Under the pieces are notes generated by a model. The model searched no databases. It saw only the letters and a program-made list of their open reading frames with translations, and was not told the DNA's origin. The position numbers were made by a program, and so were the translations under genes. A DNA stretch of 64,000 nucleotides from assembly GCA_000004985.1 (NCBI GenBank), contig GG738896.1; one strand, given 5' to 3'. The stretch is from Naegleria gruberi (lineage: Eukaryota). Below, in pieces: positions 24,001-64,000 of this stretch. The number at the start of each line of letters is the position of its first letter. Within the stretch, counting starts at the first letter, position 1.

Positions 24001-27000
24001 GTACCTTGGCTTTAGTGGCCTTATTTGAAATGAAATTAGAAATTGCTTTCTGACTAGTTGAAGACATACTTCTCTTCAACATGGCCTGAATACATTTGAG
24101 AACTTTATCCCTATTCTCTGGATTTGGTGTATGTTTGTGAAGTTCTATGAGTTTTATCAACAAATCTTCTGCAATATCCAACTGTTCTTTTGTCAGATTT
24201 GGAGGTGGGAAGTGGAGATGGAAATAATCTCTCACACAAGGAATCATAATATCAAACAAATAGGTATTATCAACTTGATAGGTTTCTTGATCTTCCTCAC
24301 TAGGTCCAACGACTTTTGGAAGTGCTACAGAGTATGTTTTCGAAGATCGTTTGGAAGCAGTTGTTGACAATCCACGGTTTTTGGTTGGAGTAGCAAACAG
24401 TGAAGTGTTTGAGAGGGTTTTGCTTGGTGTTGTTGGGGTTCGAGTATGGGCATGCATAATACTTTGTCTTTCACCTTTTTGTGTGGATAAAATCAAGTCG
24501 TTACCATCTGATTCATTTGAATAGGTCATTTCTAACACTTCCAATTCAGTAACCATTTTAGAGAATAACTTGAAAAGCATTGGATGATGAACATTTACCA
24601 TCTTGCTCTCAGATTCTGTAGAGTCATCTGATGCCTTTTCAACATTCAAGTAAATTTCATCAATAACTTTAACCAATGGATTTCTCAATACAGGTAGAGT
24701 ACAACAAATAACTTGTTCTAAAAGTTCTTCATAGCTGTAGAGGGTTTGTAATTTAAGCTCACTCTCTCTGTTTTTACCATCAGCAAGAGAGGCCAACAAG
24801 TATAAAAGGGCAATGTGATAATTTAAAATACCATCTGGTTCAGTTTTGTGTTCACCTTTGATAATTCTTTGATTACGTTCTCTGAGACCTTCTTCGTCTT
24901 TGAAAAGAATCATAATGTCCTTCTTTCTTTCGAGCAGATATTTGGTAATGAGTGATTGGTTTCGTTTGATTGGATTGCCATTATTTGTTCCCAGAATGAC
25001 ATGCAAGAACAACAACATGAAAGAGCAAGGTTGCTCAGCAATTTGGTCAATGTAGTGTTCGATTAATTTTTCTTCAATAGTACTGCACAGACCTCTATTG
25101 TCTCTTACCATTTCACAAAGGAGAATGACAATCTTCTTATCTAGACTTCTATTCTCACCAATAGTGTGAATAAAGAATTCCAATTGTTTGAACATAATCT
25201 TTTGATTGTCTTGATTTCCTCTAACAAAAGCAATTAAAATATCAATACCAATCTCTTCAATTTCCTTGCTCACAATATAATCCTTCTTGAGGAATGTGAG
25301 AATAATATCATAAATGAAGAGATTTCTCACTATTCTTTGTGATCTTTGACCATTCTTCTTGATATCTGATAGGATTTCATTGAGAGCTTTTAGGACTTTT
25401 TTCTCTTCCTGTTCTGTGAGTCTTCTAGTACCAAAATAATTGCTTTGACCATAACCAAAAACAGATCGCAACTCAACTACCTGTGAAAGTAGCAAATCGT
25501 AGGATTTAGCCATTTCTCTCGAAACGATAAGTTCAATCTTTGGAAGAACTTCACATAATTCTTGAGCAGATCTGTACTTTCTAATTAGTAAATCAAGGCA
25601 GGTTGTAGCGAGTTCCTTATTTTCATATTTGGTCAGCGAAAGAATTTTAACATCGAATCGATCCATCTTGTTGAAAATAACATCCTTTTCGAGAATATCT
25701 TTGATTACAGCATATTCATTAGAGTCAATTTCGGCAAGTCTTTTCTGTTGTAAAGCTCTATTGTCCATTGGTATCACCTCTTGTTCTCTAAGTACAGTCT
25801 CAATCTCTTCCTCTCTGTATTTCTTCCAAAAGAATTGCAAGAATTTTGTCACTCTCTTGTCTAAAATAATGTCTAGAATCATGTGGAAGATGGAAGCAAT
25901 TTCAATTTTGATCTTCATGAGGGTTAAATTTTCTTCTACGTTTTTGTGTCTTTCTTCCTCACTAAGAATTCTACCATCCTTCTTGTCATTATCTCCTCTG
26001 AGCATATCAAAGAGAGAATTCAACAAATCACCCTCCTCAAAGTCTATCAATGTAAGAACTCCAAATTCCAACATTCTCTTACACATAATTACAACGTATA
26101 ATGTAAAGTTGTTGTGATCCTTCTTTTCTAAAGACACATCCAAGCTAACATTCTCTCTAAGGAATTTCCCTAAAAAATCTTTGATTTCTGCCAAATCCTT
26201 TGAGTTGCCGTCTTCTTTTGATCTTTGATTGAGAGTACTGGTTTTTCTGGTGTAGTCAATCAGTGGTTTCTTTTCTCTCTTCTCCGTATCAATGAAAGTT
26301 TGGATCAAAAGCTTTACAAATGATGTTCTGACGGCTGGTGTTAAATTCTTATCAGAGACACATTTGTGGACAACTTCGTAGGTGAACAGAGAAACAACAG
26401 ATCTTCTCGCATCCTCAATTTCTTCATTTCTTCCTGTACAGAGGGCAGCAAAAAGACGAATTTCCTCTTGGAAGAAGATGAGTTGTTCATAATTTGGTCT
26501 TGTGTATCCATTGTATGTATCATCTGTTGCAGACTGAGAGAAACTAATCAAGTCTATTTCATCATGATTGACTTCTACCACAACCTTGTCTTCATTGTTA
26601 AGCTTTGGAATGATAAAAACTCTTCTCAATTGGTCCTTATATTTTGAAAAAAGCAAATTACCAATATATACCTGATTTTTCACCACAGTTTTACCTTCAC
26701 AAATGATCAAGCTAGTCAAAAAGGATAAATAGACAGCCTTCTTCAAGCTCTTGGAACTTTGTCGCATACCAATCTTTGATGTGTTTTCAAAGAGAAGCTT
26801 GACGAAAAAGTCAATTTGTGACTCGGTAATCTTGTTCAAAAGTGGATAATTGTTGGATAAGATTTCCAACAGAGCTTCACTTGCAGCAATGCTATGTTCA
26901 ATCAGAGTTTGGATAAAGTTGATATATTGTGCCATGTAGAGACCGTTAGATTCGTTTGAAAGGACAAACTGTCTAATGAGTCTGAAGGAGTACTGAACCA

Positions 27001-29385
27001 CATCAAAATAAAGTGCCTTCTCTGGCTTTTCATAAATTAAAGATAAATCCTCAATTGATAAATATTTCTTCAATAATAGAGTGATATTTTCCATTACAAG
27101 ACCAATGACTCCCATATCTCTGATGATATTTTGTCTAAGTTTAACAGGAATACCACCTCTTGTTAGAGGGTCTGTCTCTTCACTAATAGTACAAAATCTA
27201 ATGCAATTTGCCAATGCACCAATGTAGAGTTTGATATCTGACTTGTCAATGAGCGAGTCGTCCAACTTGGATTTGAAATACCTAATAATTGGCATGTAAC
27301 CAGCTACGGTGAGTGCATCATTCAAATCCTCATGTGAAACAGCTGAAAAATTGAAAACATCCTGTTCAAACATTTTCAAAGATGAAGTTACTCTCTGATA
27401 GGTTGAGTCAGCAAGTGGTCTAGATATGTGTACCCAAGAATTAGTGGCTTCATGCCTCAATCTAAAGTAATCGGTGGTTTGAACTTTCTCACCCTTCTTT
27501 TGTCCTCCAGTCGAGTCGGTGAAATGGAAGACACTGGTTGGTATTGGTTGTGTAATCAAGTCATCAAAGTTTTCAACATGAAGAGTCCACAATGAATCAT
27601 TTTGTGTTACGCTGCCTGATCTATTTCCTCGTGGAGTGGCTACAATTGAACTTTTTCTAGGTGCATTAACTCCAAGTTGGCTCAAGTTATCACCAGATGT
27701 TGGTGTGTTTTCTCGTTCATATCTTTCTTCAATGGCATCATCCGCTTCAATGGTTATTCCTTTAATAGGACGAATCACCATGTATTTTCCACTTGCCAAG
27801 TGTCTTAGACGGAATTTCGAAGTCCACTTTACAGTACCAGAACAGCTAGAGTCTAAAAATTCCAATTGCCACAAAGTTTGAGGACTCACATAGTCAGAAG
27901 ATTTAGATTCCATACCAGCCAAGCTTGTATCCTCAGAGTCGTTGATTTGTAGATTGCTTGATTTCTTGAAAAATTTAATTCTATCCGTTTTTTCATTCAC
28001 TCCAATATATCCTTCCAATTCCTTGTGGTATATTCTCATAATGGTGGATCCTGCTTTGAGTTTTCTATTTGTTTCATCATTTTGTGGTGTGTATTTTTGG
28101 TAGAGTTTCATTCTCCACCTAGTGAATGCAGTACTATTCGCCATGTTAACTTCTCTTCTACTATCGTAGGAATATTTTCCTCTATTTCGTGATAATTTTA
28201 CAGCTTGTTGAGCTAATTCTGTGTATGAAGAATTTTCATTCACTCTTTGATAGGTACCATCATTGTCTTCTCCAGTTGTGTATCTATAATAGGATAAGTG
28301 AATAAATTGGTTGGACTTTTTGTTGTAAAGTCTAATTTGATCAGTGAGTTTAACTTGATCTCCATCCTTTTGAAAACTGGAATATGGCATTATTTGAAAG
28401 TATGAATAGGTAGATCCTTCTTTATCGAGGGCCAATCTCATACAATCCTTTTGCATTTCTGCAGATTCTCTTGCTACTGTCAGATAGCACTGTGTTTGTA
28501 CATGATACAATTGTACTGTTTGTCCATAGACAACTGGTTTTGAAAGGTTTCTTTGTGATTCCATCCTATTTTGTTCAAGTTCTCTTTCAGCTCGTTGTTC
28601 CAATTGTTGATATTCTGTTGAGAAGGAGGCTGTCGAAGGCATTACATTATTCTTGTTATCCTTTGTTTTTTTGTTGGCCTCTTTCAACTCTTGTTCTTCT
28701 TTGAAGGTTTTGAACTTTTTCAGTGCTGAATAACTCTTTGGATGACAAATCTTGAAAACACAATTAGAAAAGTTTGGTGTAAAGAAGGAAGAATCCTTTT
28801 CTGAAATGACAGATTCCACCAGACCACATCTAGCTTGTGGTTTGTTTCTAAAATATTGATGAAATAATAAAAGTAGTATTTAACAGAGAATAAAGAAGGT
28901 GAATAATTAGTTGAATATTTAAACAATATTTACCCTTTAACATTCTCGGAACAAGTCAAATTAATACCATCCACACTCAAGAACCCAATCATTGAATTAC
29001 CAGTACTTTTTGATGACAAATCCGTATAGAAGGAAATTTCCTCTCCAATTCTCAAATAATCTCCCTTCTTTTTCATCATCATATTATTCATCCACAATTG
29101 TTGCTCATCCTCCTTCACATCACTCATCACATCTTCATCCTCATCATACAAATGATGATCAAAGCCTTGTTGTTGCTGTGCAGAAGAGGATGATGATGAC
29201 GAATATTCGGAATGTTGTTCATGATGATGATTTGATGTGGCGCCATTATTTTTAACGGCAGAAGTGGCGCTTACCGATACGATGAGTTGTTCTTGTTGTT
29301 GATGAAATAAGAGTGCATAGTCAAAGAGGTGTTGTGATGATGGTTCGGAAGAGTTGCTATTGTTATGATTATTGGATAGTGTCAT
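21038..29385 (-). CDS. inositol 1,4,5-trisphosphate receptor-like Ca2+ release channel in two exons, about 29385 or 29082..28934 and 28847..21038, with an 86-nt intron
   Basis: Exon 1 (...DYLRIGEEISFYTD..GFLSVDG) plus exon 2 (CGLVESV...CVFKICHPKSYSALKKF) reproduce the IP3R N-terminus (LHIGD..., CLFKLC). Exon 1 ends with gg|gtaaat. The acceptor ttttag at 28848-28849 joins in phase to the 2593-aa ORF, whose track start is GTG. The C-terminus has IP3R hallmarks FLVIVIVLLVNVVFGVILDSF and CFICGLERTKFD plus the conserved tail. The upstream in-frame 100 aa are Gln/Ser-rich. Alternative ATGs lie at 29082-29076. Confidence 0.85.
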
Positions 29386-52500: not shown

Positions 52501-54036
52501 TTCATCTTCCGAATCCGAATCTATAGTGATTGCTTCTTCTAAGGTATTTGATAATCCTCGTTCCTGTTTGACCTTATATTGTGAGAGAGCAGAATCACCC
52601 AAAGTATTATTAATTTCCTGAGTGATGATACTCGCATTCTTACTTGTGACACTACTGCTGACACTGCTCGTAGGAATAGTCGATGATGGTTGTTCAAGTG
52701 TTGCTGGAATCGATCTTTCCTCTTCGGAAGTGAGGAGCACCTTCTCAGGAGAAGATTGTGTTGGTGAAGGTGGCAATGTCAATGATGGATCAATTGTAAG
52801 AGATGGTTGAAGTGACTCCATGGTTGGTTGAGTTACAAGTGATACTGGTTGAATTGACTCTATACTGTTGTGACTACCCGCTAACTTAATATTGGATAGA
52901 TTTGAAGATGATAATTCACTTGTTCCCATAGAAAAGTCAAAATCTTCCATATTTAAATCATCACTTTCCTCCTGAATAATGTCTTTAGCTTGTGTTGTTG
53001 ATTCAGTACTTGCTATTACTTGTGGTTGTTGAAGGAGAGTATTGTTATTACTACTTGTATTTACATTGGTCGTCTCGTTAATAACTTCCTGTTGTTGTTC
53101 GTCCAAATCAATATCTTCATCATCGTCTTGCATCTTATTGTCCATCTCGTCCATATTTACACTAATACTACTATTGTTACTTGTTAATCCTGGTTCAACT
53201 TTCACTCGTATCAGGGATGCATGTTGTGGTGCTTCTAAATCATCATCGAAACAAACACTTTCATCATCTGAATTAACAACAATTGCTTCGTCAAAGTTAA
53301 CTTCTTCTTCTTCATCAGATGTTATTGCTGGTATTGTTGGTGGTGCTTGTTGATTATTGAATGGTTGTTGTACTTCCTGGACTTCATCAAAATTGATTTC
53401 TTCATCCGAAGCCTCTTCATCAAGCACTTGTGATGCTTCATAGTAATTTTCCTCCTTCTTTACTCGAATTATTTGTTGTTGTTGAACATTATTATTAGTA
53501 TTGCTGCTAGTATTATTAAAGTCTATTTCCTCATCAAAGGTTTGACTATTTCCTCCCAAATCAGCGTCATCATCTAGGTTCATATCATCCGAAATTTCCT
53601 CCTCTTCATGATGAAGACTTGCTGAGGAAGAGTGAAGAGTAACGTTGCTATTCATGATGGAAGAACCGATTGTGAAAGGCTGTGGTCGAATGTAAGATGT
53701 TGATGATGAAGATGAAGAGGACGGATTATTGTTATTATTATTGATAGTATTATTAGTATTGAAGGGTTTTATTGTGTTATTATTGTTGTTGTTGTTGGAG
53801 TGTTGCTGTTGGTGAGTATTGTTGGAGTTGTTGGGCAACATTTTTTTTCTTAGTTTTTCAATCTTGGTCACGAAATTGTAAATTGAACTATTTAGTCTTG
53901 TTACAAAAATATTGAAATATTTTGTTGTCATAAAAATATCAAAATATGTGAATGATTTCAATTCATAAGAATTCACAGTAGGAAAATTTGAAATGAAAGA
54001 AAGATTACAACAATAGTTTCCAACCAATCGGAACAT
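49534..54036 (-). CDS. large (1500 aa) acidic/Asn-rich nuclear-type low-complexity protein with a structured C-terminal half, function unknown
   Basis: The ORF is intact. It has a poly-N start, a long acidic stretch (DDDEQLDDEDEDDDEEEDE) and about 900 aa of non-repetitive C-terminal sequence. Confidence 0.55.
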   Translation of the reverse strand: MFRLVGNYCCNLSFISNFPTVNSYELKSFTYFDIFMTTKYFNIFVTRLNSSIYNFVTKIEKLRKKMLPNNSNNTHQQQHSNNNNNNNTIKPFNTNNTINNNNNNPSSSSSSSTSYIRPQPFTIGSSIMNSNVTLHSSSASLHHEEEEISDDMNLDDDADLGGNSQTFDEEIDFNNTSSNTNNNVQQQQIIRVKKEENYYEASQVLDEEASDEEINFDEVQEVQQPFNNQQAPPTIPAITSDEEEEVNFDEAIVVNSDDESVCFDDDLEAPQHASLIRVKVEPGLTSNNSSISVNMDEMDNKMQDDDEDIDLDEQQQEVINETTNVNTSSNNNTLLQQPQVIASTESTTQAKDIIQEESDDLNMEDFDFSMGTSELSSSNLSNIKLAGSHNSIESIQPVSLVTQPTMESLQPSLTIDPSLTLPPSPTQSSPEKVLLTSEEERSIPATLEQPSSTIPTSSVSSSVTSKNASIITQEINNTLGDSALSQYKVKQERGLSNTLEEAITIDSDSEDEVMVEKVRVVPSSLPSQLVIEESENEEEIPEDDDEQLDDEDEDDDEEEDEYSSTSSEEENDEELEEQDAVSTSSGRFKPSLSVKRIATAFRMITKDICTGSFCCGGPLLTRAGLPGLKLIIPNQDPEQEPTLKHVTFPLANPEQAREIIKLAKRAAKHSNEYYLNADQFVITNPKWNEMVSELVNSCTRGNLGVSPEKEVSFQLHQLVLFKEGENIPKKNKLPSNVFAQFIVQLPCSYAGGKVKFSHRDEQLEYDLVEQSFYLPSYITYFTECQVNEDKIEEGYKLYLVYNLIYNGKPSFKPSLETVFKVADNLKKIEALWSPQESPFAVYLLDSVKEADCRVDLLKGQDLVLYNFFTLFNDQYSLFDIYLGVFERTTLRTTKTSSTRKVVNDDEIYDSDDESSYLVKRLTNPKTGVVVSQMFKIELSDTIPYDIASISSNRNCLVVIPKKYHYLSLKYMDAKTCYEGFITLYKEFMIDPTKRNLCIELASSQTQSQFFKGKLLELIPILLNLSDIDLFKKFLIPIPILDLPTWNTILNHFGLDNLKTEFLSGLVGYVCYKTQDLEKRANQTFNYLIGLADDQLSLDFMSRFLEKLDNITNNINTGILSINFLVSLIETCSKLKIESEVIGRISLKIIQTNAIETCTEQIIQVLQALHSQNQIGLCNQIFELIIRRAQPQIFTVIMPVVISSISLLGVDNIKSKIVEFCNKMINTSTIMHALQIIEVSVQKNDDKLLYLSKYFRKGVINCLQISQITLNLCQKVLGVLYRANFKDDISTITSIIIGKSGMIENSIHELLIPLIKWTDKELGKHAFLNPGFNSILQYCINMLRMSIGNTQSSEQDWSLNVSLACNCDVCNSLAFFLRDKVKTKFEYRKAEAQRNHVMLSAKAAAEKYLKFDTVKDRSPYCLVIQKVSTPNDAEKKKAQALKETFEYLTRLSTTVMNLNNPSMATSSSSSSISSTTSNTKRTYPSSSDSDESLRRINKKSK

Positions 54037-54252
54037 AAAATTAAAGATGATATTTATTTGATATTTTTCATCATCTAAAGATCATCTTCACATTATAACC
54101 CAATGACAGTAATGAAAGATAAAATATCCTACCACCAATGATTTTTTGAACCATCATCAACAACAAGACCTAAACGTTAGCGACTCCTCAGTGTCAGGTT
54201 TCAAAAAAGTACTCACCCAACAATACTGGCTTACTCCATCTTTAAAAAAATC

Positions 54253-56677
54253 ATGTCAATTCAAATATCAAGAGTCGGTTTGATGAACTCACTCTTGTTG
54301 ATTTGTATTCTTCTTGCAACATTGATGGTGAGTGGTATTGATACTACTGCTGCTGTTACTACTAGAACCAAATCAGCAGTGCCAACAATTCCCGCCAAAT
54401 ACTTTAAAAAATTACAAGGACCACCATCAGAGTTTTCTCTTCACGCTTATCCAAAGCCTTCCGAAGGAGCTATTCAATCAGACTTTTATTTATATGTAGA
54501 GAAGTTTAAAAAGAGTGAGAGCTTGAAGGCCTCGACAACACATCAATATGAATGGAGTGCTCGTGTTGCTGTTGATAGTTCTGAACAAGTGGATTTATCC
54601 TTACTCTCACAATATGTCAAGAGTATGCGTGTTCAAGTTTTGGATCAACATGGTACTGACATTACTTCAATGGCTAGTTTTGTTGTTGATGAGGAAAGTT
54701 TTGGAGCCTTCTCAGATGGTGAAAATAACTTGTTACCTTCAAAAACTTTGAGATTTGATGCCAACTCAATTCGTCGTTTGAAAATCAATCAAAAGAGCAA
54801 GCAAACTAGTATTGGAAGTAATTATATTGATGAATGGATTGTAAATGTTTTTGTTGATGCACCTGCTTCAGCTCCAACCTATTATGACGATGAAGCATTG
54901 CACTTGTTGGTCTATAATCAATCTCCACTTCGTGCCTATACTCAATTACAATCATATGACAATCAATTGGTTGGTGAAAATGTCATTATTGAAACTTTCA
55001 TGTATGATGAAGATGTAACTCCAGTTAAGGCAATCAATGATATTCCAAGACCAATTCGTGTCTTTGCCACTGCCACTGATGAAACAATTTTGAGTGCTCA
55101 AATGGAAATCTTGTCACCAAGTGGTCAAGAAACCTCTATCAACATGCTTGATAATGGTCTTTTGGGTGATCGTATGGAAAATGATGGAATTTACTCTGCT
55201 GCTCTCAATGCTCAAGAAGCTGGTGACTATGTTATCACTGTCTCAGTCAAGGGTGTTATCAAGGGTAATGCCGTAAAGAATATCTCACGTCTCATTAATC
55301 AAGATCTCGTTGAATTTGAAAGAAGTACACACCATGTTGTTTCAATTGTTAAAAAGTCACTCGAGTTGACTCAAAATGCTGTTTTCTCATTCAATGCTCC
55401 TTCTGTTAAAACTGCTCAAATTGCTGATGTCACCTCACAAATGGTCGACGTCAAGTTGGTTGCCAAGCCATTAGATGCTGACGCTTTAGGTAAAAAGTTC
55501 AAGGCCTATGCTGAAGTTTACTCTGCCGGTGATGCTAAATCAAGTGTTCCAATTGCTTTTGTTTCAGGTATGGCCATTGCTGAAAAGTGTGACGGTACTG
55601 AATGCCCAGAAGGACTTATCTACTTGCCACTCCAAATGAGTTTGGCTTGGGTTGCTTTGGCTAGACAACAATCTAATGGAGTTATTTCTGCTCCATTCAT
55701 TTTGAAGAATGTCAATATTCAAGATGTTGCCACCTCTAATATTATTACCAAAGCTGATCAAACTCTTCCTGAATTGACTAGTTGTCATATCAAGTTACCA
55801 GAACATACCTTGTACAATGCTAGACCAGTTGATATTAACTACTTTTTAAACACTCATGAAGGTATGGAAAAGTTTGATGGTGTCATTACTGAATCAATGT
55901 TGTTTGGTCCAAGACCAACTGAAATTGCCACTAAGAGCCTTACCTCTTCAACACAACACAAGGTCTTGCTTATCCATGGTTATTGTTCTGGTTATGCTCC
56001 ATTCCCAAGCTCTGATTTCACCAATGCTGTCTATTTCAGTGATCATAATGCCAACAGAAACAATGATGAATTTGCCAGTATGATTTTCGAACTTGGTCAA
56101 ACCTTTGATTCATTCTCAATGGTTGGTCACTCACAAGGTGGTCTTGCTTCATTGCACTTATTTGCTTATTATTGGACTCATGCTGACGTTGCTGCTGCCT
56201 CAAAGAAGACTTTGGCTGGTGAAACTAGAAGAATTATCCAATCTGTTGGTTCTCCATACAGAGGATCTGGTTTGGCTGGTGTTTTGGCTAGTATTGGTAA
56301 AGTTGTTGGAATTGGATGTGGTAAACAAACTGATTTGACCTATGATGGCGCCAGTAAGTGGCTCAGTTCTATTCCAGTTGCTGCTCGTCAAGCTCTCTAT
56401 TACTCTTACACTCAATATAAGGATTGGTCTTGGTGTTCATTGCCAGCTAATGTAAGTATTTTATTTTTTAAAACTCAATTTACCAACTATGTCAATTCTA
56501 AAGGCTGTTTTGAAATTACCAAACGATGGAACCTGTGAAAAGAGTAGAGCTTCTGTTGATGGTGCAAATCACTATGACAGCAAGAAGGGATGGTGTCACA
56601 CCAACAAGATGAAATACAAAGGTCAATGTGAAGACTCTGAAAGAAATGCCGTTCTTAACAAGTATGCCCAGTTGTAA
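54253..56677 (+). CDS. secreted alpha/beta-hydrolase (lipase/esterase-like, GHSQG nucleophile elbow) with a beta-rich N-terminal domain of about 500 aa, in two exons, about 54253..56451 and 56504..56677
   Basis: The signal peptide is MSIQISRVGLMNSLLLICILLATLMVSG. The hydrolase segment reads IHGYCSGY...MVGHSQGGLASLH. The 52-nt intron is gtaagt...ctaaag and joins in phase to ORF 56489, which is in frame 2. Confidence 0.65.
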
Positions 56678-56879
56678 ATAAACAACCCATACAGATTTCT
56701 CTCCCATGACCAAATATTATCTCTTGGATTACGACTGCCATAAATAACAATATGAAATAAGGAATATAATCTTATCAAATTTGTGGAAAAGATCACTTCT
56801 CAGCCAAGTTCAAATATGGCATATGACAAATCTCTCAAGATGCACACTAACCTAGGGATTGTTTTCAAGACCTGACTCG

Positions 56880-57372
56880 AGTTTGAATTATTTCGCTTAA
56901 TGTACCGAACTCGCAAGATCACCTCCAAAATGGTGTGTGAAAAGGTCTTTAGTGCAAATAGAAACCAAACTGGACCATTGCCCAAGGTGAATGTCGTTAA
57001 TGTTACATTGGCTTGCATGTGTTTCGGTGAAGGTGAATTCAATCAATTTCCATACTATATAGTATTACACTATAACCATTGAAGAATCCAAGAATTTGAT
57101 GGTTTGGGCTCTGAAGAATTCCGGCCAAAACTTTACAACCAAAGTACTTGATGCACCTTATATTTTGGTTTCTGAACATTTTCAAACAGAGCTGTTATAA
57201 AGAATCTATGGAACTCTTCAAGACTTATCCAGATGGGGCCTTTGGTATCCGGTTCTTGGTAGTTTTATTCAAACTTTCTACTCCGTTCCACTTTGGTCTT
57301 TCAAAAGTCAATATTTCACTCAAACAAATTGCCAGCTTCTTGTCAGGTGTGAGTTACACGAGTGTTAATTAA
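56880..57372 (+). pseudogene. decayed partial duplicate of the extracellular sensor-domain region of the downstream cyclase gene (about 58240..58750), with frameshifts and stops
   Basis: Three frames carry colinear similarity to the parent. VNVVNVTLACMCFGEGEFN matches parent YNITLANLCYGEGGLN. MVWALKNSGQNFTTKVLD matches FVWAKKNPGENFLTWILD. ELFKTYPDGAFG...GLSKVNISLKQIASFLSGV matches SLFQNYPQGAFG...LGISKVNISLTLIGKFLASV. The spacing matches the parent gene. Confidence 0.6.
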
Positions 57373-57906
57373 GGTTATTAGAAGTTTCTTGGATACCGAA
57401 AATGAAACACCACTTCACATTGAATAAAAATTCAATTCAAGTTACTCCATTGGTTTTATATTGTGAATGTTGATGTTGTGAATTAATTGTTGAAGGGAGT
57501 CTCTAGACCAGTAAAAGCACGAAATCGTAAAGTTTGACATTTGGCTTCTTTGGCTTCTAATAATTATACAGGGTCGGCCAACAACAAGCAAGAATAGTTA
57601 AGGTAATGTCCTTAATTGCTCACTTCCTTAATAGTATAAACACGCACCCTATGACCATTTCCAAGTTTTGATCTCTGCTTGTTAAATACCTCTCTGGATT
57701 GAGCGAAGAGTACCATTTTTCAATCTTTACCAAACTCTACAATCCATCTCTCTGTCAACTACCATCACCTCAAAAATAAAACAATGATCCACAACAAGTA
57801 ATTTCTTTTATCCTGATGCCAAATGATGTTTGTAATGGTAATAGTAGAGAGCATCTATCAAAATGACCTCTTTCCATTGTTTGATGCCTCAATTCTTTAA
57901 AACAAA

Positions 57907-60318
57907 ATGACTAGACGAATCGTTCCAGAAAATGCAGAATCCAGTTGGAAAGCAAGTCAAAAAGAAGAAGTTGAAGAGGAGGAACAATTGTTGGTCGCTG
58001 AGAAGAAGGAAAAGAGGCCTCTGATTCTTGGGATTTTACTTTCGGTTAGATTATTCTTGATTATTGTCATTATGAGTGTTGTATTATTGACGGCCTTGTC
58101 AATTTGGATAACTTCATACAAAGTCAATCAGGATCAAGCAATGGAAGCAGTTAATGTATTGATTTCGAATATTAGAGAAAAGGTTTCGAATTTCTTGAAT
58201 AGTCAATTGGTACCTGCCAAGCAAGTAGCTCAGCAAATGGCCTATGATTACCATAATAAGTATGTCAAAATAGATGACAGTGCCTTGCCATATGTCTTTT
58301 CAAAAATGAGAGTTTATAACATTACACTTGCTAACTTATGTTATGGTGAAGGTGGTTTAAATGCAATGCAAGCAGTTACAGTGGACGAAACTAAGGGATC
58401 TTTCGTTTGGGCAAAGAAGAATCCTGGAGAAAATTTCCTTACATGGATTTTAGATTCAGATACTGGAGCAGTTGTAAAATCGTATGGATTGATTCTTCCT
58501 GCCTATCCAGTTGGTAAAATGGACTATTATGTTGAATCGTTGAGTTTATTCCAAAATTATCCTCAAGGTGCTTTTGGAAATGTCTATCAAGTGATTAACA
58601 GTTCAATGCAGACATTCTTCTCTGTTCCAATTTATAACACAACGAATACTACATCAAAGCAAAGACTTGGTATTTCAAAAGTCAACATTTCACTAACCTT
58701 AATAGGAAAATTCCTGGCAAGTGTTGAAGTTTTGACACGTGGGTTTGTCATTGTTTCAGAATTCAACACAGATTATGTAATTGGTTCCTCCCTTGACATT
58801 CCAGAACTTTTACTCCAAAGAATTCACTCGGTCAACATTTCCCAGCACAATGCAGGAGAAATTATGAGAAAGTTTCATGAACTTTCGGGTAAAGTTGAAA
58901 CCTTCCAAACTACTCTAACCATTGGACAAACCACTTATCTTATCAGTTCTAGTGCGTATGTGTTTGAGAATATTAAATGGAGAATGACACTTGTCTTTGA
59001 GGAGAGTGAAATTATGGAAGGTATCATTGTAAGCAGTTACATCATTTTGGGAGTTACAGTTGGTGTTTGTTTATTAGGTATTTTGATAAGTGTTTTGATT
59101 GGAAATGTGGTGACGAATCCTTTCGTCCAACTCGAAAAGGATTTTAAAAAGATTGAAATGCTTGATTTGGCAAATATTAAGCCAAGATCGTCACTCTTCT
59201 CAGAAGCTGCAAATATTTATGCATGTTTAACTGCAACTGTTCAGTGGTTGAAAGATTTTAAATCTTTTCTTCCTGATTCAGTTTTGAATCAATTATCAGA
59301 TTCGAATAATGATACTTGTGATAAGGATAAGGATCCTCCTGGTGATTCATCATTAAGAGAAAGTGCAAGTGCCATTAATTTATCCAATCGCAAATCTGAA
59401 ACTCAATCAAGAATCAGTTCCCATCATGACAAGAAGAGAGACATGTTTAAATTGGGATTATCAGTCAAGGAATGTTGTGTTGTTAATGTCAGAATTAATA
59501 ACATGAATGAGAAATATTTCTCAGATCCTGATGTACTTTCACAAACAATTTCTAAGGTTTTAACTGGAATTTCAACAATTTGTAAAACAGTTCGAGCTGA
59601 TTTACAAATTAAGAGTTATGATGAATTTTTGGTGATTTTTGCTGATCGACCACAAGTTTCAAATATTGGATTGGAAACTGCATTGAAGATTGTTGCTGGA
59701 ATTGGTCATTTGAATGATAATTTGACAAGAAATGGTCATGGAAAGTTGATCAATTCCATTGGCATTGCCTCTGGAAATTCACTGCAAGGAAATGTTGGAA
59801 ACAAACAAACAAGATACTTTGCTCTTGTTGGCACAGTGATTGAAAGGGCAAAAGATTTGTGTTTCATGAGCTCACAATTCGAAACTCCAGTCTTGACTGA
59901 TCAAATCACTTTCAAACATGGTAAACAATTTGTTTTCAGACCAGTGGATAGAGTTAAAGATAAGGATGGAAATCTCTTCACTGTTCATGAATTGGTAAAG
60001 AAGAATTTGGTTGAGAATGATGAGTGGCTCTACGAATTGGAACAAAAGAGGCAAAACTCCAAGCACAACGATTATACTCTAAGTGTGGAGAAGCTCTTTC
60101 AAGCAAGAGAGAATGATTCAATTATTCCTACAGAAGAACTCAATTCAATTCGTGAATGTTTACTCTCCTATCAAGATGAATGTCCTACTGATAAGGTGGT
60201 AAAGAGAATGGCCAACCTCTCCACCCAAACAAATGATTTCTCCAATTATCATTCAAATGTTGCAAAGATTATAAGAAGCTATTTAAATGTTGATAGACCT
60301 GTACATATTAATGAATAA
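57907..60318 (+). CDS. receptor-type class III nucleotidyl cyclase homolog with ACG-like topology (TM, extracellular sensor domain of about 300 aa, TM, cyclase homology domain)
   Basis: The N-terminal TM is LILGILLSVRLFLIIVIMSVVLLTALSIWI. The second TM is IIVSSYIILGVTVGVCLLGILISVLIG. The cyclase-domain signature reads IKSYDEFLVIFAD ... IGIASGNSLQGNVGNKQTRYFALVGTVIERA. Several catalytic positions look substituted by eye. Confidence 0.7.
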   Translation: MTRRIVPENAESSWKASQKEEVEEEEQLLVAEKKEKRPLILGILLSVRLFLIIVIMSVVLLTALSIWITSYKVNQDQAMEAVNVLISNIREKVSNFLNSQLVPAKQVAQQMAYDYHNKYVKIDDSALPYVFSKMRVYNITLANLCYGEGGLNAMQAVTVDETKGSFVWAKKNPGENFLTWILDSDTGAVVKSYGLILPAYPVGKMDYYVESLSLFQNYPQGAFGNVYQVINSSMQTFFSVPIYNTTNTTSKQRLGISKVNISLTLIGKFLASVEVLTRGFVIVSEFNTDYVIGSSLDIPELLLQRIHSVNISQHNAGEIMRKFHELSGKVETFQTTLTIGQTTYLISSSAYVFENIKWRMTLVFEESEIMEGIIVSSYIILGVTVGVCLLGILISVLIGNVVTNPFVQLEKDFKKIEMLDLANIKPRSSLFSEAANIYACLTATVQWLKDFKSFLPDSVLNQLSDSNNDTCDKDKDPPGDSSLRESASAINLSNRKSETQSRISSHHDKKRDMFKLGLSVKECCVVNVRINNMNEKYFSDPDVLSQTISKVLTGISTICKTVRADLQIKSYDEFLVIFADRPQVSNIGLETALKIVAGIGHLNDNLTRNGHGKLINSIGIASGNSLQGNVGNKQTRYFALVGTVIERAKDLCFMSSQFETPVLTDQITFKHGKQFVFRPVDRVKDKDGNLFTVHELVKKNLVENDEWLYELEQKRQNSKHNDYTLSVEKLFQARENDSIIPTEELNSIRECLLSYQDECPTDKVVKRMANLSTQTNDFSNYHSNVAKIIRSYLNVDRPVHINE

Positions 60319-60334
60319 AAAATTTTACTTCTCC

Positions 60335-62533
60335 CTAAATTGTAAAGAAGAATCGCCTACACATTATATTAAATTCTTCTCCCCACTCATTATGATCATA
60401 TAAATCCAATTCTATATTGATTTCTCTCGAAATTAACAAATCGTTCATTCCACTAAATATTAATCCAATTTCACTCTTACATCTGGCCATATAAAAGAAT
60501 GAGCTTGCGAGTTGTTCTTTAATGTTTTCTCCCATATCATCCGAGTCGTATCTTGTATAGATAAAATCAATATAATACTTGAAATCCAAAATGGCAAGCT
60601 CATATTTTTTCAAGTCCAGTAAAGACATGGCTCTATTTCTATACGTGTCACTGATGTCATCAGAAAATTGAATATTATTACCAAAACGATCTATACAATT
60701 AGTATACCATAGTACAGCATTTAGATGATCCTCAGCAGCAGAGTAGGCAAATCCGAGATTGTGTGAATAGTTTTGCTGAGTTTCATCCAACAAGTCTGCA
60801 TTGTAAAAATCATTAATGGCCTCTTGATACTTTTCCAGAGAAATAAATGTAAATCCTCTATTATTGATAATAAAGGCATGTTGTTGTTTGAGCACCTTAT
60901 AGTCACGTATTCTTGCTAGCTCTTCTGTATTTTTAGCTCTTCGAGTTAGCTTCTTCAAGTCCTCAAATTTCTTGTATTCAGGAAGAATGTACTTGTCCAG
61001 TAATTTCTGATAGGTTTCTGCCGAATCGTTCAACCTTCCCATTAGCTTTAACTGTAGAGCCTTATTGTTGTAAAGAGTAATCAAGCTACCATCCTCGTGG
61101 CAGTCATTGTTACAAATACTGGAAAATCTATTGTAAAGGCATTCTCTGTAAAATCTCTCTGACAACCACTCAGGACCTTCAAACTCTGGTTTTGTAATTC
61201 TTTCGTGAAATTCTATTGCGTAATCAATCAGTTTTACTCTGGCACTATACTTTAACTGATCACGTAGGTAAATGGAGTATAAAATTGAATTCTTATAATT
61301 TGGAAAGATCTTGACACTAATTTTGAGGCAAGTCTTTGCTAATTTGAAATAATAGGCCCGCTCAGATTCCATCATAGCAAAGCATCCATACGACCAAAAT
61401 ATACTCCCACTCAAAGACAGCATTGTCTCAATCAACATGTGAGATGGAAGCATTAAATAATCCACACAATTACAATCCGTCTGTTTTACCTTTTCGAATC
61501 CTTTCGTAACAATACTGTAATTTTCCTCTCCTCCAAACCTGAGTAGATGTGACTTGTACAAGTTAAAGCACTCCTTGATATCTTTACGAGCCAATTCATA
61601 AATTAATTTCCCGGAAATTCTAGCACTAATACTCTTTGTATTGTCCAATTCATCATCATCACCAAATACCAGACTCTCAAACCTCTGAACAGAGTAGGTA
61701 GTCGAGTTGTTACCAAGAGTAAAGACCAAATCGCACAAGTATAAAGCTCTCTTTTCCAAGGCCTGTATCTTTTTCACTGCCACAAAAGTCTTGTCCTCGT
61801 ATTGCTCATCTAAATGTTGAAGCACGTAGGTAATGTCGCTCACTGCCGATAGACACAACCTCATGTCAGAATTCATAGTATCTTTACAGGCTGTCTTGTA
61901 GAAGGCATTTGCTCTATTCCAATAACACATGACATCTCCACAACAACATTTATGAACATCAAAATCCTCTTCGTTAAATGAAATTCCAAATCTTTGATCC
62001 AAATAATCAATATATCTCATCATTTCCACACAATCACATTCCTTTGTATCGTCTGCCACATTCTCATATCCATACAATTCATCTTTCAAATAATTGTACT
62101 CCTTTTCCAAATCCACAAATTGTTGCAAAAATCTCTCCTTCACTCTATCGCACACTTCAATAAATGCTTGTTCGAATTTTCTCTTGGTATTCTCCGAAGA
62201 GACAGGAAGTTTCTCCTTTGAATTTATCAACTTTTCAATCTTACTCAAGTAGGCAGAAGGTTCATAGCTAGTTTCTTGTTGATCATTCTTCTCTTCACCA
62301 CCAAAAACATCAAAATCATCTTCCGACTCCTTTACAAGTTGAGTGAGAAGAGTTGGATTCCATGGAGGAAAAGTCTCCTTCTTCTTTTTCAAGGCATTAT
62401 AATCTTCTGTTGTTATTGTTGTCGTGGTAGTTGAAGAAACTGTTGTTTCAGCTGTTGTACTATTAAAATCCTCTTCATTAGAATTGATACTAGTTGCCGA
62501 TAAATCTTCTTCACTATTATTATTATTAATCAT
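60335..62533 (-). CDS. TPR-like repeat protein (732 aa), function unknown
   Basis: The ORF is intact. TPR-like helical pairs are visible, for example YRNRAMSLLDLKKYELAILDFKYYID and NNRGFTFISLEKYQEAINDFYNA. The N-terminus is acidic and Thr-rich. Confidence 0.5.
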   Translation of the reverse strand: MINNNNSEEDLSATSINSNEEDFNSTTAETTVSSTTTTTITTEDYNALKKKKETFPPWNPTLLTQLVKESEDDFDVFGGEEKNDQQETSYEPSAYLSKIEKLINSKEKLPVSSENTKRKFEQAFIEVCDRVKERFLQQFVDLEKEYNYLKDELYGYENVADDTKECDCVEMMRYIDYLDQRFGISFNEEDFDVHKCCCGDVMCYWNRANAFYKTACKDTMNSDMRLCLSAVSDITYVLQHLDEQYEDKTFVAVKKIQALEKRALYLCDLVFTLGNNSTTYSVQRFESLVFGDDDELDNTKSISARISGKLIYELARKDIKECFNLYKSHLLRFGGEENYSIVTKGFEKVKQTDCNCVDYLMLPSHMLIETMLSLSGSIFWSYGCFAMMESERAYYFKLAKTCLKISVKIFPNYKNSILYSIYLRDQLKYSARVKLIDYAIEFHERITKPEFEGPEWLSERFYRECLYNRFSSICNNDCHEDGSLITLYNNKALQLKLMGRLNDSAETYQKLLDKYILPEYKKFEDLKKLTRRAKNTEELARIRDYKVLKQQHAFIINNRGFTFISLEKYQEAINDFYNADLLDETQQNYSHNLGFAYSAAEDHLNAVLWYTNCIDRFGNNIQFSDDISDTYRNRAMSLLDLKKYELAILDFKYYIDFIYTRYDSDDMGENIKEQLASSFFYMARCKSEIGLIFSGMNDLLISREINIELDLYDHNEWGEEFNIMCRRFFFTI

Positions 62534-63424
62534 GATGATGCTATTTTTTTGCTATTCTCACGGAATGAACAAAATGATGATGAAAAATTATTATTAGGTG
62601 TGATGATGAACCTATTATTCTATTATTTTGTGAGGATGTATTATTTACAAACTAATGGAATAAATATTAATGAAGAAGATATGAGGAGGTTCTTTTTTTA
62701 AAAATTAAAACAATGAAATAAATCGTGCGCACTCATCACATAATTTTTTTGAATTTAAATTTTAAAATTGAATTATAAAACCGAATATTCCTATTAATCT
62801 TTCTCCTTTTCCACTGCCAGTTGATGAGATTGATGTTGAACATTCTGTTGTGGCTATTATGATTGCTTCAATAAATGACATTCTTGGTTCATCAAAAGGA
62901 AACCAAAAAGGTCCAACACGGCCATCCTTAAATAAGTGTTTAAATGGAGCATCTCACCTAAAGAGTCAAGGCCAATTGTGTGTTTATTGCCTTAACATGA
63001 GTTTGAAATTGCCAAAGACAGAATTCAAAACAACGGATTTCATTTTTCCCGCCAACATGGAACTCTTATTAAGGAACCATAGCTATTGCCATCGGTACCA
63101 AATCGGACAAGATCCCTCCTTAATATTTTAATGTTGTCTGACTGAAAGGAAGCATAGGATGATGATCTCTGTGGCAAGCCACTAACCTCAATCAATCAAA
63201 TTCCTCAGTCCTCACAATGAGGTGAGGAGGAGTATCGACTGGTTAGTGTTCTTCCTTGCTTGTTAACAAAGAGTGCGGAAAGGATAAATTAAAGGAAATT
63301 AGCTTCTTGTTTGGAATGAGGCAAATGTCCTTCTTGATGCTCTTTGCGTTTCTTGTTTGGAATTTTTACACTCACTAACCATTTTATTAAAAAAACAAAC
63401 AAGATCTGCTGCAGTGGAATTTAT

Positions 63425-64000
63425 ATGACTCAAAGTAGTGCAATACAGCAACAAGAAGTGGTGGCTAAAAGGCAAACAACAACATCATCATCTCTGAACT
63501 CCAACAACATGACTGTTGGATCCATTGAAAGTGTCAACCTTAAGCTTGACATGGACATTTCGCCAAAGAAGGTTGTAAATAGAAAAAAGTCTCCAACTAA
63601 TAAGACACATGTATCATCTTCATCAATAACCATGTGGCCACATGAATCAAACTCTGTATTATCCTCTTCTGATATTTGTTCATCGAGTTCATCTCCCAGT
63701 AATACAACAACATCTAACAACAACATGGATCATCACAAGATTAAAAAGTCTCGGAAAACCATCAAGTACGAAACACATGTTTTTACATGCAATGACGAAC
63801 CACTAGTAGCATCAAAAAGAAAACTTATTGCCAAGTATGATTTGTTACGAGTGCTGCATTTACCTCAAACTTTGGCAAGTCAGGTACTGGGGTGTAGTTT
63901 CTCAACATTGAAGAGAAGATTCTACGAATCGAAAGAGGACTTGGGAATTGAGAAATGGCCTCAGTTTTATCAGGAAGTGAGGCATTTACCAATATTCGAG
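63425..64000 (+). CDS. second RWP-RK-like domain protein, 5' part (the open frame runs off the window end)
   Basis: ATG at 63425 opens a 192-codon frame without a stop to position 64000. It encodes ...LLRVLHLPQTLASQVLGCSFSTLKRRFYESKEDLGIEKWPQFYQ, which is an RWP-RK-type motif with KWP replacing RWP. The ORF track lacks it because it has no stop within the window. Confidence 0.55.
   Translation, partial: MTQSSAIQQQEVVAKRQTTTSSSLNSNNMTVGSIESVNLKLDMDISPKKVVNRKKSPTNKTHVSSSSITMWPHESNSVLSSSDICSSSSSPSNTTTSNNNMDHHKIKKSRKTIKYETHVFTCNDEPLVASKRKLIAKYDLLRVLHLPQTLASQVLGCSFSTLKRRFYESKEDLGIEKWPQFYQEVRHLPIFE

What the first reader, a model, noticed from the sequence alone, without database searches (positions are those of the whole stretch)
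56880..60318. Degenerate tandem copy of the cyclase sensor domain immediately upstream of the receptor-cyclase gene
About 0.5 kb upstream of the ACG-like cyclase gene there is a 0.5-kb segment whose translation, spread over three frames, is colinear with the parent extracellular domain. VNVTLACMCFGEGEFN aligns with YNITLANLCYGEGGLN. MVWALKNSGQNFTTKVLD aligns with FVWAKKNPGENFLTWILD. YPDGAFG...SKVNISLKQIASFLSGV aligns with YPQGAFG...SKVNISLTLIGKFLASV. The copy is interrupted by stops and frameshifts. This looks like a recent partial tandem duplication that is decaying. Alternatively it could be a cassette of alternative 5' exons, or a source for gene conversion of the sensor domain. It is direct evidence of local duplication dynamics at a signalling receptor locus.
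Basis: seen in the sequence. Interest (0 to 1): 0.6.

Follow-up and report, generated by a model that had tools for sequence, protein, structure and literature searches.

The report
Dead fragment of duplicated receptor gene
A 377-base broken remnant of an old duplicate of the neighbouring Naegleria gruberi membrane-receptor gene sits in the spacer just upstream of that gene; it is an ordinary gene relic, and it is neither recent nor an alternative exon.

Summary
Window 56981-57357 (+) is colinear with residues 132-273 of the gene 57907-60318. The match is spread over three frames in five blocks (tblastn E 1e-8 to 3e-6; family HMM E 3e-10; nucleotide identity 68%, z about 20). All four junctions between blocks differ in length by non-multiples of three (+16, -29, -7, -35 nt), and every frame has a stop. 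No homology to the family is detectable on either side.

The window is Naegleria gruberi. The gene encodes a Heterolobosea-restricted receptor with a predicted double-Cache-like ectodomain and a divergent class III cyclase-homology domain. Of 62 family members, the adjacent gene is the relic's closest relative (98.6 vs 70.9 bits).

The copy is not recent. Synonymous sites are near saturation (pS 0.65). Codon-position identity is 0.65/0.78/0.48, the same pattern as between the gene and its intact N. lovaniensis homologues. Simulations reject a copy that was dead on arrival. The best reading is an old tandem paralogue that stayed under purifying selection for most of its history, then died and was mostly deleted.

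I found no support for alternative 5' exons or for gene conversion. This is an ordinary finding of low interest.

The parts
56981..57357 (+). Pseudogene relic: remnant of a paralogue of the downstream receptor gene, colinear with parent aa 132-273, the predicted membrane-distal module of the ectodomain.
56981..57046 (+). Relic block A (frame 2), PKVNVVNVTLACMCFGEGEFNQ, matches parent aa 132-153. This frame ends at stop 57080-57082.
57069..57152 (+). Relic block B (frame 0), TITIEESKNLMVWALKNSGQNFTTKVLD, matches parent aa 156-183. The junction with block A is 22 nt where the parent has 6 nt (+16 nt, a frameshift).
57193..57246 (+). Relic block C (frame 1), CYKESMELFKTYPDGAFG, matches parent aa 207-224. 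The junction with block B is 40 nt where the parent has 69 nt (-29 nt, a frameshift).
57252..57290 (+). Relic block D (frame 0), VLGSFIQTFYSVP, matches parent aa 229-241. The junction with block C is 5 nt where the parent has 12 nt (-7 nt, a frameshift).
57292..57351 (+). Relic block E (frame 1), FGLSKVNISLKQIASFLSGV, matches parent aa 254-273. The junction with block D is 1 nt where the parent has 36 nt (-35 nt, a deletion plus frameshift). This frame ends at stop 57370-57372.
56678..57906 (.). The 1229-bp intergenic spacer that holds the relic. The flanks 56678-56980 and 57358-57906 show no significant similarity to any part of the family and no transposon-like repeats.
57907..60318 (+). Intact parent gene: an uninterrupted 803-aa ORF of Naegleria gruberi. 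Layout: TM1 (about aa 38-68), ectodomain (about aa 70-371), TM2 (about aa 372-400), linker, class III cyclase-homology domain (about aa 519-700), helical tail.
58300..58725 (+). Segment of the parent gene (aa 132-273) that corresponds to the relic.
54325..56677 (+). Unrelated upstream neighbour gene: two exons (54325-56451 and 56504-56674) with a 52-nt intron, and the stop codon at 56675-56677. It bounds the spacer on the 5' side.

Best explanation
The 377-bp segment 56981-57357 is a non-functional relic of a head-to-tail tandem paralogue of the adjacent receptor gene.

Shown:
- It is homologous and colinear with aa 132-273 of the neighbour, on the same strand.
- The neighbour is its closest relative in the whole family.
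- It carries at least four frameshifting length changes and a stop in every frame.
- It has no recognisable N-terminal region (TM1 and stalk helix).
- It has nothing after the first ectodomain module (second module, TM2 and cyclase-homology domain are absent).

Inferred:
- The duplication was old, of about the same depth as the split between N. gruberi and the N. lovaniensis/N. fowleri homologues.
- The upstream copy was a working, protein-coding gene under purifying selection for most of the time since.
- It was then inactivated, and about 2 kb of it was lost by deletion and decay, leaving one island in what is now the 1.2-kb spacer upstream of the survivor.
- The relic most likely does nothing now. 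At most it is passive DNA within the survivor's upstream region.
For: Homology and colinearity: (E 1e-8, HMM E 3e-10, z 20-30).

Nearest relative is the neighbour. The frame-corrected 127-aa peptide aligns end to end with parent aa 133-273 at 98.6 bits (E 1.5e-27), against 70.9 bits for the next member. Summed tblastn is 117 bits for the parent against 107 bits or less for all 61 others. The family set came from an exhaustive HMMER scan of 1.84 billion representatives. A search of 5.8 billion proteins with the relic peptide found nothing closer.

Subfamily placement: 394 of 500 NJ bootstraps place the relic either as sister to the parent or as sister to the clade of the parent plus its N. lovaniensis/N. 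fowleri homologues.

Disabling lesions: the junction length differences of +16, -29, -7 and -35 nt sum to -55. That equals the difference between the two repeat spacings, 1374 and 1319. The longest open frame is 74 aa.

Past selection:
- Codon-position identity is 0.65/0.78/0.475, pS 0.65, pN 0.28, dN/dS 0.24.
- Over the same 90 codons, the parent against its intact N. lovaniensis homologues gives pS 0.70-0.77 and pN 0.23-0.26, while the relic against the parent gives pS 0.64 and pN 0.26.
- Simulations with ascertainment give 0 of 150 dead-on-arrival replicates per setting as low as observed when pS is matched. The observed values fit 50-80% of the copy's history under selection.

Family genes also lie within 10 kb of each other in two N. 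lovaniensis loci, so local duplication fits the family.
Against: - The codon analysis uses only the 101 codons that still align, so it is biased toward low dN. The simulation corrects for this only roughly: uniform omega, no indels, equal branch lengths.
- The tree position is unresolved. 39% of bootstraps place the relic as sister to the parent and 40% as sister to the wider clade, so duplication before or after the species split cannot be told apart.
- No syntenic locus was found in N. lovaniensis or Willaertia magna, so there is no direct sight of an intact second gene.
- The missing 5' and 3' parts are inferred to have existed. They are not seen.
- Four indels in 377 bp suggest a non-trivial period of neutral decay. 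That sits a little uneasily with a pN no higher than that of intact homologues.
Confidence: 0.8

Rival explanations
1. Dead-on-arrival partial tandem duplication. On this view only part of the sensor-domain coding region was copied upstream of the gene, and it has drifted neutrally ever since.
For: Only a 377-bp internal fragment is detectable, and no family homology is found in the flanks. The neighbour is the closest relative.
Against: Neutral drift would spread the differences evenly over codon positions. The observed identity is 0.65/0.78/0.475, with pN/pS 0.44. When per-branch divergence is set to match the observed pS, simulated dead-on-arrival copies give pN/pS 0.68-0.81 and 19-31% amino-acid identity in the best-aligning codons. 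None of 150 replicates per setting reached the observed values. The pattern equals that between intact homologues. At this depth of synonymous divergence, a neutral fragment would probably no longer be detectable at the protein level.
Confidence: 0.12
2. The fragment came from a different paralogue elsewhere in the genome, by ectopic recombination, transposon capture or repair-mediated insertion, and lies next to this gene by coincidence.
For: The family has many members (54 representatives at 50% identity). A piggyBac-like transposase gene lies next to a homologue in N. lovaniensis.
Against: The adjacent gene is the best match by about 28 bits over every other member. It lies on the same strand and in the same order. 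The spacer has no terminal inverted repeats, no target-site duplications and no dispersed-repeat matches. No closer protein exists in the databases.
Confidence: 0.05
3. The fragment is a functional element: a cassette of alternative 5' exons, a donor for gene conversion of the sensor domain, or an independent intact gene with introns.
For: It has the same orientation as the gene and lies immediately upstream. It corresponds to the predicted membrane-distal module of the ectodomain. That module is the ligand-binding one in bacterial double-Cache receptors (my own knowledge).
Against: - The in-frame blocks are separated by 22, 40, 5 and 1 nt, whereas the nearest real intron is 52 nt. The two longer gaps do not start with GT.
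- Every frame has a stop, and the longest ORF is 74 aa.
- The parent ORF begins at an invariant Met and aligns with its homologues from the N-terminus, so it needs no upstream exon.
- An internal ectodomain segment could not replace a 5' exon in an intronless gene.
- No identity tract exceeds chance (26 of 28 nt, permutation P about 0.1). Overall identity of 68% is too low for efficient homologous conversion (my own knowledge).
Confidence: 0.02
4. The similarity is due to chance or low complexity.
For: None beyond the AT-rich composition of the region (GC about 36%).
Against: Three colinear HSPs with E 1e-8; profile HMM E 3e-10; z 20-30 against shuffles. The frame-corrected peptide scores E 1.5e-27 and matches many family members at the same positions.
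Confidence: 0.01

Closest known systems
Duplicated (non-processed) pseudogene fragments left by tandem gene duplication in expanded gene families
   Same: - Lies on the same strand, directly next to its closest intact relative.
- Colinear homology.
- Multiple frameshifts and stops.
- Large terminal truncations.
- Sits in an intergenic spacer.
- Belongs to a lineage-expanded signalling family.
   Different: Only about 18% of the coding length survives. The substitution pattern shows that it was a constrained gene for most of its divergence, so it is an old paralogue that died late and not a fresh failed duplicate. Processed and non-processed origins cannot be told apart by introns, because the parent gene has none.
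Dictyostelium adenylate cyclase G (ACG) and trypanosomatid receptor-type adenylate cyclases
   Same: The parent gene has the same overall layout: N-terminal TM, large extracellular sensor, second TM, and a single cytosolic class III cyclase-homology domain. PMC4399386 describes ACG as a CHASE domain flanked by TM segments plus a cyclase domain.
   Different: Pfam detects no CHASE domain in any of 10 members. The ectodomain is a family of its own, with only 54 representatives in 1.84 billion proteins. The cyclase domain of this member does not reach Pfam PF00211, and the canonical Asn and Arg positions align with Glu and Asp, so catalytic activity is doubtful.
Bacterial double-Cache (dCache_1) ligand-binding domains of chemoreceptors and sensor kinases (for example PacA 7psg, Mlp24 6iot, TlpC 5wbf, Tlp3 4xmr)
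   Same: The predicted ectodomain fold is a long stalk helix followed by two stacked alpha/beta modules. Foldseek gives E 1e-5 to 1e-6, target-normalised TM 0.5-0.6 and about 320 aligned columns. The relic corresponds to the membrane-distal module.
   Different: There is no sequence-level match to Pfam dCache models. The model has only moderate confidence: pLDDT 65-85 in this region, with residues 194-233 below 50. The output domain is eukaryotic.

Membership tests
Duplicated pseudogene fragment | Statistically significant, colinear homology to a functional gene | tested here: met
   tblastn E 1e-8, HMM E 3e-10, z 20-30; the frame-corrected peptide scores E 1.5e-27
Duplicated pseudogene fragment | Disabling lesions: frameshifts, premature stops, truncation | tested here: met
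   Four junctions with length differences of +16, -29, -7 and -35 nt; stops in all three frames; aa 1-131 and 274-803 absent
Duplicated pseudogene fragment | No intron-exon model can restore an open reading frame | tested here: met
   The gaps between blocks are 22, 40, 5 and 1 nt, against a local intron of 52 nt. The two longer gaps do not begin with GT
Duplicated pseudogene fragment | Adjacent to, and derived from, its nearest intact relative (tandem origin) | tested here: met
   The neighbour is the best of 62 family members (98.6 vs 70.9 bits). It has the same strand and order and lies 549 nt downstream. Bootstrap support for a strict sister relationship is only 39%
Duplicated pseudogene fragment | Not expressed as a protein | not testable with these tools
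   No transcript or proteome data are available here
ACG-type CHASE-domain receptor adenylate cyclase (parent gene) | CHASE domain in the extracellular region | tested here: not met
   No Pfam CHASE hit in this protein or in 9 homologues, even at E up to 1
ACG-type CHASE-domain receptor adenylate cyclase (parent gene) | TM, ectodomain, TM, then a single cytosolic cyclase domain | tested here: met
   Predicted helices 47-116 and 366-416 bracket an alpha/beta ectodomain; the cyclase fold is C-terminal
Class III nucleotidyl cyclase catalytic domain (parent gene) | Sequence or profile match to known cyclase domains | tested here: met
   The family profile against PDB gives Cya2 2w01 at E 2e-6 and CyaB 3r5g at E 4e-5. 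8 of 10 members hit PF00211 at E up to 1, best 6.6e-8, but this member does not
Class III nucleotidyl cyclase catalytic domain (parent gene) | Canonical catalytic residues: two metal-binding Asp, and the transition-state Asn and Arg | tested here: not met
   In the HMMER alignments the VNxAxR motif of solved cyclases aligns with the family consensus 'vkrakd' (parent IERAKD), so Asn aligns with Glu/Lys and Arg with Asp. The region of the first metal-binding Asp does not align at all, and no FxDxxGFT motif is visible. This rests on motif-level reading; no activity test was possible
dCache_1 sensor domain (parent ectodomain and relic) | Match to the Pfam dCache_1 sequence model | tested here: not met
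   No hit at E up to 1 in 10 members
dCache_1 sensor domain (parent ectodomain and relic) | Stalk helix plus two stacked PAS-like modules | tested here: inconclusive
   Foldseek matches to several dCache ligand-binding domains at E 1e-5 to 1e-6 and TMt 0.5-0.6. However, the model is of moderate confidence and was built from 10 sequences
Alternative 5' exon cassette | Open exon(s) with splice sites that can join the downstream gene in frame | tested here: not met
   No open frame longer than 74 aa. The homologous part is internal (aa 132-273) to an intronless ORF that starts at an invariant Met

The most novel reading that the evidence does not exclude
The relic is retained because it has acquired a regulatory role for the surviving receptor gene. 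It might be transcribed as part of a long 5' leader, or as a non-coding or antisense RNA that feeds small-RNA control of the paralogous family. Alternatively, it might carry upstream promoter elements. Nothing here tests transcription, so this is not excluded. Nothing points to it either.
Probability: 0.04. Interest if true: 0.4.

Novelty: new member of a known kind. Interest (0 to 1): 0.15.

Why it matters
It matters little beyond annotation. It records one birth-and-death event in a lineage-restricted receptor family of Naegleria, a genus reported to hold at least 81 cyclases (PMC9928731). It shows that old paralogues in this family can be lost by piecemeal deletion, leaving short islands in intergenic DNA. 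For genome annotators, the fragment should be flagged as a pseudogene remnant. The public model of the adjacent gene should also be revised to the uninterrupted 803-aa ORF. The codon-position test used here is a cheap way to separate 'died late' relics from 'born dead' ones.

Tried and rejected
- **Extending the relic.** A permissive frameshift-aware alignment seemed to extend it to parent aa 43-362. With stricter scoring and shuffled controls, the 5' flank (z 0.3) and the 3' flank (z -0.9) are noise, both at the protein level and at the nucleotide level. The family HMM also finds nothing there.
- **Looking for a closer donor.** A search of 5.8 billion proteins with the frame-corrected relic peptide returned nothing. 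The word-based prefilter limits sensitivity to fairly close relatives.
- **Comparing the locus in related species.** Loci of the two best N. lovaniensis homologues, and of the orthologues of the upstream neighbour in N. lovaniensis and Willaertia magna, share no gene order with this window beyond the query gene itself. No syntenic comparison was therefore possible.
- **Failed or uninformative look-ups.** Look-ups of the N. gruberi paralogue P0006 and of P0001 found no record. The metagenome contig holding P0010 was too short to help.
- **Gene conversion.** The 26-of-28 identical stretch is not significant.
- **Transposon capture.** The spacer has no terminal repeats and no dispersed copies.
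- **Structured RNA.** There are no Rfam hits in 54000-64000.
- **Literature.** The N. gruberi genome paper (Cell 2010) is not held in the library.
Full report
**Source and setting.** The 803-aa ORF at 57907-60318 (+) is 100% identical to a predicted protein of Naegleria gruberi on a 331,721-bp scaffold. Its homologues are from N. lovaniensis, N. fowleri and a few metagenome contigs. The upstream neighbour is also a N. gruberi protein, with orthologues in N. lovaniensis and Willaertia magna. The window is therefore nuclear DNA of the heterolobosean amoeboflagellate N. gruberi, with GC of 31-38%. The upstream gene ends with its stop codon at 56675-56677; it has two exons and a 52-nt intron. The spacer before the receptor gene is thus 56678-57906, 1229 bp.

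**Checking the observation.** tblastn of the receptor protein against the rest of the window returns exactly three hits. All lie in the spacer on the + strand, in three different frames, and in the same order as in the protein:
- 56984-57043 to aa 133-152, 55% identity
- 57069-57299 to aa 156-244
- 57184-57351 to aa 204-273, 39% identity

The E-values are 1e-8 to 3e-6.

Other family members hit the same places. A profile HMM built from 12 members matches the three forward frames at HMM positions 127-152, 161-238 and 187-269, with a best E of 2.7e-10. It matches nothing else in 56600-57906 on either strand.

At the DNA level, 56981-57357 aligns with 58300-58731 at 68% identity over 356 columns, with many gaps, z = 19.7 against shuffles. 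The repeat finder independently reports two direct-repeat pairs, 58 nt at 74% and 46 nt at 72%, with spacings of 1374 and 1319 nt.

**Anatomy of the copy.** The homology falls into five in-frame blocks:

| Block | Window | Frame | Parent aa |
|---|---|---|---|
| A | 56981-57046 | 2 | 132-153 |
| B | 57069-57152 | 0 | 156-183 |
| C | 57193-57246 | 1 | 207-224 |
| D | 57252-57290 | 0 | 229-241 |
| E | 57292-57351 | 1 | 254-273 |

- The four junctions are 22, 40, 5 and 1 nt long, where the parent has 6, 69, 12 and 36 nt.
- The differences are +16, -29, -7 and -35 nt. None is a multiple of three.
- Their sum, -55, equals the difference between the two repeat spacings.
- Each frame is closed by a stop, and the longest open frame is 74 aa.
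- The junctions are too short to be introns, and the two longer ones do not begin with GT. No exon model can rescue the reading frame.

**Extent.** A first, permissive frameshift-aware alignment appeared to extend the homology to aa 43-362, but this did not survive controls. With stricter scoring, the 5' flank against aa 1-131 scores z = 0.3 and the 3' flank against aa 274-420 scores z = -0.9, while the core scores z = 29.8. Nucleotide local alignments of the flanks are also at chance level. The relic is therefore a 377-bp island. Nothing recognisable remains of the N-terminal cytosolic stretch, TM1, the stalk helix, the second half of the ectodomain, TM2 or the cyclase-homology domain.

**What the parent gene is.**
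- Pfam gives no hit for this protein at E up to 0.01.
- A profile of ten family members matches solved class III cyclases: Cya2 2w01 at E 2e-6, CyaB 3r5g, and OaPAC.
- Eight of the ten members match PF00211 when scanned one by one at E up to 1. This member does not.
- An AlphaFold2 model (mean pLDDT 54, but 65-85 across most of aa 50-390) shows a long helix (47-116), two alpha/beta modules (about 126-262 and 263-365), a second long helix running through the membrane (366-416), and a C-terminal alpha/beta domain.
- Foldseek against the PDB matches the ectodomain to bacterial double-Cache ligand-binding domains (PacA, TlpQ, Mlp24, TlpC, Tlp3; E 1e-5 to 1e-6; target TM 0.5-0.6; about 320 columns). 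It matches the C-terminal domain to cyclase catalytic domains.
- No CHASE or dCache Pfam model is matched.

The protein therefore has the layout of receptor-type cyclases such as Dictyostelium ACG, which PMC4399386 describes as a CHASE domain between TM segments plus a cyclase domain. It is not shown to be a member of that family. The ectodomain family is small and lineage-restricted: 54 representatives at E up to 0.001 in 1.84 billion proteins. The relic corresponds to the membrane-distal module of the ectodomain.

**Where the relic came from.** I pooled all 62 family proteins retrieved. The adjacent gene gives the highest summed tblastn score on the relic, 117 bits against 107 or less. The frame-corrected 127-aa peptide aligns end to end with parent aa 133-273 at 41% identity, 98.6 bits, E 1.5e-27. 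The next best member scores 70.9 bits.

In the family alignment, identity to the relic is 47% for the parent and 27-39% for the other full-length members. A neighbour-joining tree with 500 bootstraps places the relic inside the parent's subfamily in 79% of replicates. It is sister to the parent in 39%, and sister to the parent plus its N. lovaniensis/N. fowleri homologues in 40%.

A search of 5.8 billion proteins with the relic peptide found nothing closer. The spacer has no terminal repeats, no target-site duplications and no copies elsewhere in the window. A local, head-to-tail origin from the neighbour or its ancestor is the simplest reading. More distant family genes also lie within 10 kb of the homologues in two N. 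lovaniensis loci.

**How old it is, and whether it was ever a gene.** Over the 101 alignable codons:
- Identity by codon position is 0.65, 0.78 and 0.475.
- 26 of the 56 codons that encode the same amino acid use a different codon.
- Nei-Gojobori estimates give pS 0.65 (dS about 1.5, near saturation), pN 0.28 and dN/dS 0.24.

A fragment that was non-functional from birth should have accumulated changes evenly over codon positions on its own branch. I simulated this and included the bias from keeping only the best-aligning 70% of codons. When per-branch divergence is set to reproduce the observed pS (0.75-1.0), dead-on-arrival copies give pN/pS of 0.68-0.81 and 19-31% amino-acid identity. None of 150 replicates per setting reached the observed 0.44 and 55%. 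Models with 50-80% of the copy's history under purifying selection fit.

As an empirical yardstick, I compared the same 90 codons between the parent and its intact N. lovaniensis homologues. These give pS 0.70-0.77, pN 0.23-0.26 and position identities of about 0.70/0.80/0.45. The relic against the parent gives pS 0.64, pN 0.26 and 0.68/0.78/0.51. The relic looks like a diverged working paralogue that was then broken by indels and deletions. It is an old duplicate that died late, not a recent one that is decaying.

Caveats:
- The analysis is restricted to codons that still align.
- The simulation is simple.
- Four indels imply some neutral time.

**Other readings.**
- Alternative 5' exons are excluded by the frame structure. 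The homologous part is also internal to an intronless ORF whose first Met is invariant among homologues.
- Gene conversion has no support. The most similar stretch (57293-57320, 26 of 28 nt) is not beyond chance in a column permutation (P about 0.1). It also coincides with the most conserved protein motif.
- No Rfam family matches in 54000-64000.

**Comparison with related species.** The loci of the two best N. lovaniensis homologues, and the loci of the upstream neighbour's orthologues in N. lovaniensis and W. magna, share no gene order with this window apart from the query gene. The suggested cross-species check could not be made with the data available.

**Verdict.** The feature is real, and its nature as a degenerate copy of part of the sensor domain is correctly seen. 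It is a short pseudogene relic of an old tandem paralogue, a well-known kind of object in an expanded gene family. It is not known to be annotated. The novelty class is 'new member of a known kind', and interest is low (0.15).

Noticed in passing
window 59920-60113: The public N. gruberi gene model (693 aa) joins 57907-59919 to 60048-60113. This removes a 128-nt 'intron' that encodes the family-conserved NDEWLYEL motif. The uninterrupted 803-aa ORF to 60318 aligns with its homologues to the end, so the public model is probably wrong.
   Followed up: yes
window 59461-60006 (parent aa about 519-700): The cyclase-homology domain looks catalytically degenerate. The VNxAxR motif of solved cyclases aligns with IERAKD, so Asn aligns with Glu and Arg with Asp. 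No FxDxxGFT metal-binding motif is visible, and Pfam PF00211 is not reached by this member. The family may be pseudo-cyclases or may need a partner.
   Followed up: partly
window 58114-59019 (parent aa 70-371): The ectodomain has a predicted double-Cache-like fold but matches no Pfam model. It has only 54 relatives (at 50% clustering) in 1.84 billion proteins, so it is a small family. All members that carry a source name come from Naegleria.
   Followed up: partly
window 21038-28819 (-): A 2593-aa ORF with the full domain set of an inositol-trisphosphate/ryanodine receptor-type calcium channel: Ins145_P3_rec, MIR, RIH, RIH_assoc and Ion_trans.
   Followed up: no
L001 7988-9660; L001 1-2071; L002 17195-21599: In N. 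lovaniensis, a piggyBac-like DDE_Tnp_1_7 transposase gene lies directly upstream of the closest homologue of the receptor gene. More distant cyclase-family genes lie within 10 kb of both homologues, which suggests local clustering of the family.
   Followed up: partly
window 54325-56677 (+): The upstream neighbour is a 766-aa protein with no Pfam hit. It contains a GHSQGG motif, reminiscent of a serine-hydrolase nucleophile elbow, and a 52-nt intron at 56452-56503. Orthologues exist in N. lovaniensis (56% identity) and Willaertia magna (39% identity), but without conserved gene order.
   Followed up: partly
window 57047-57068: The junction between relic blocks A and B carries 16 extra bases relative to the parent, including a 14-nt perfect palindrome at 57052-57065. 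It is probably a small insertion or duplication that caused the first frameshift.
   Followed up: no
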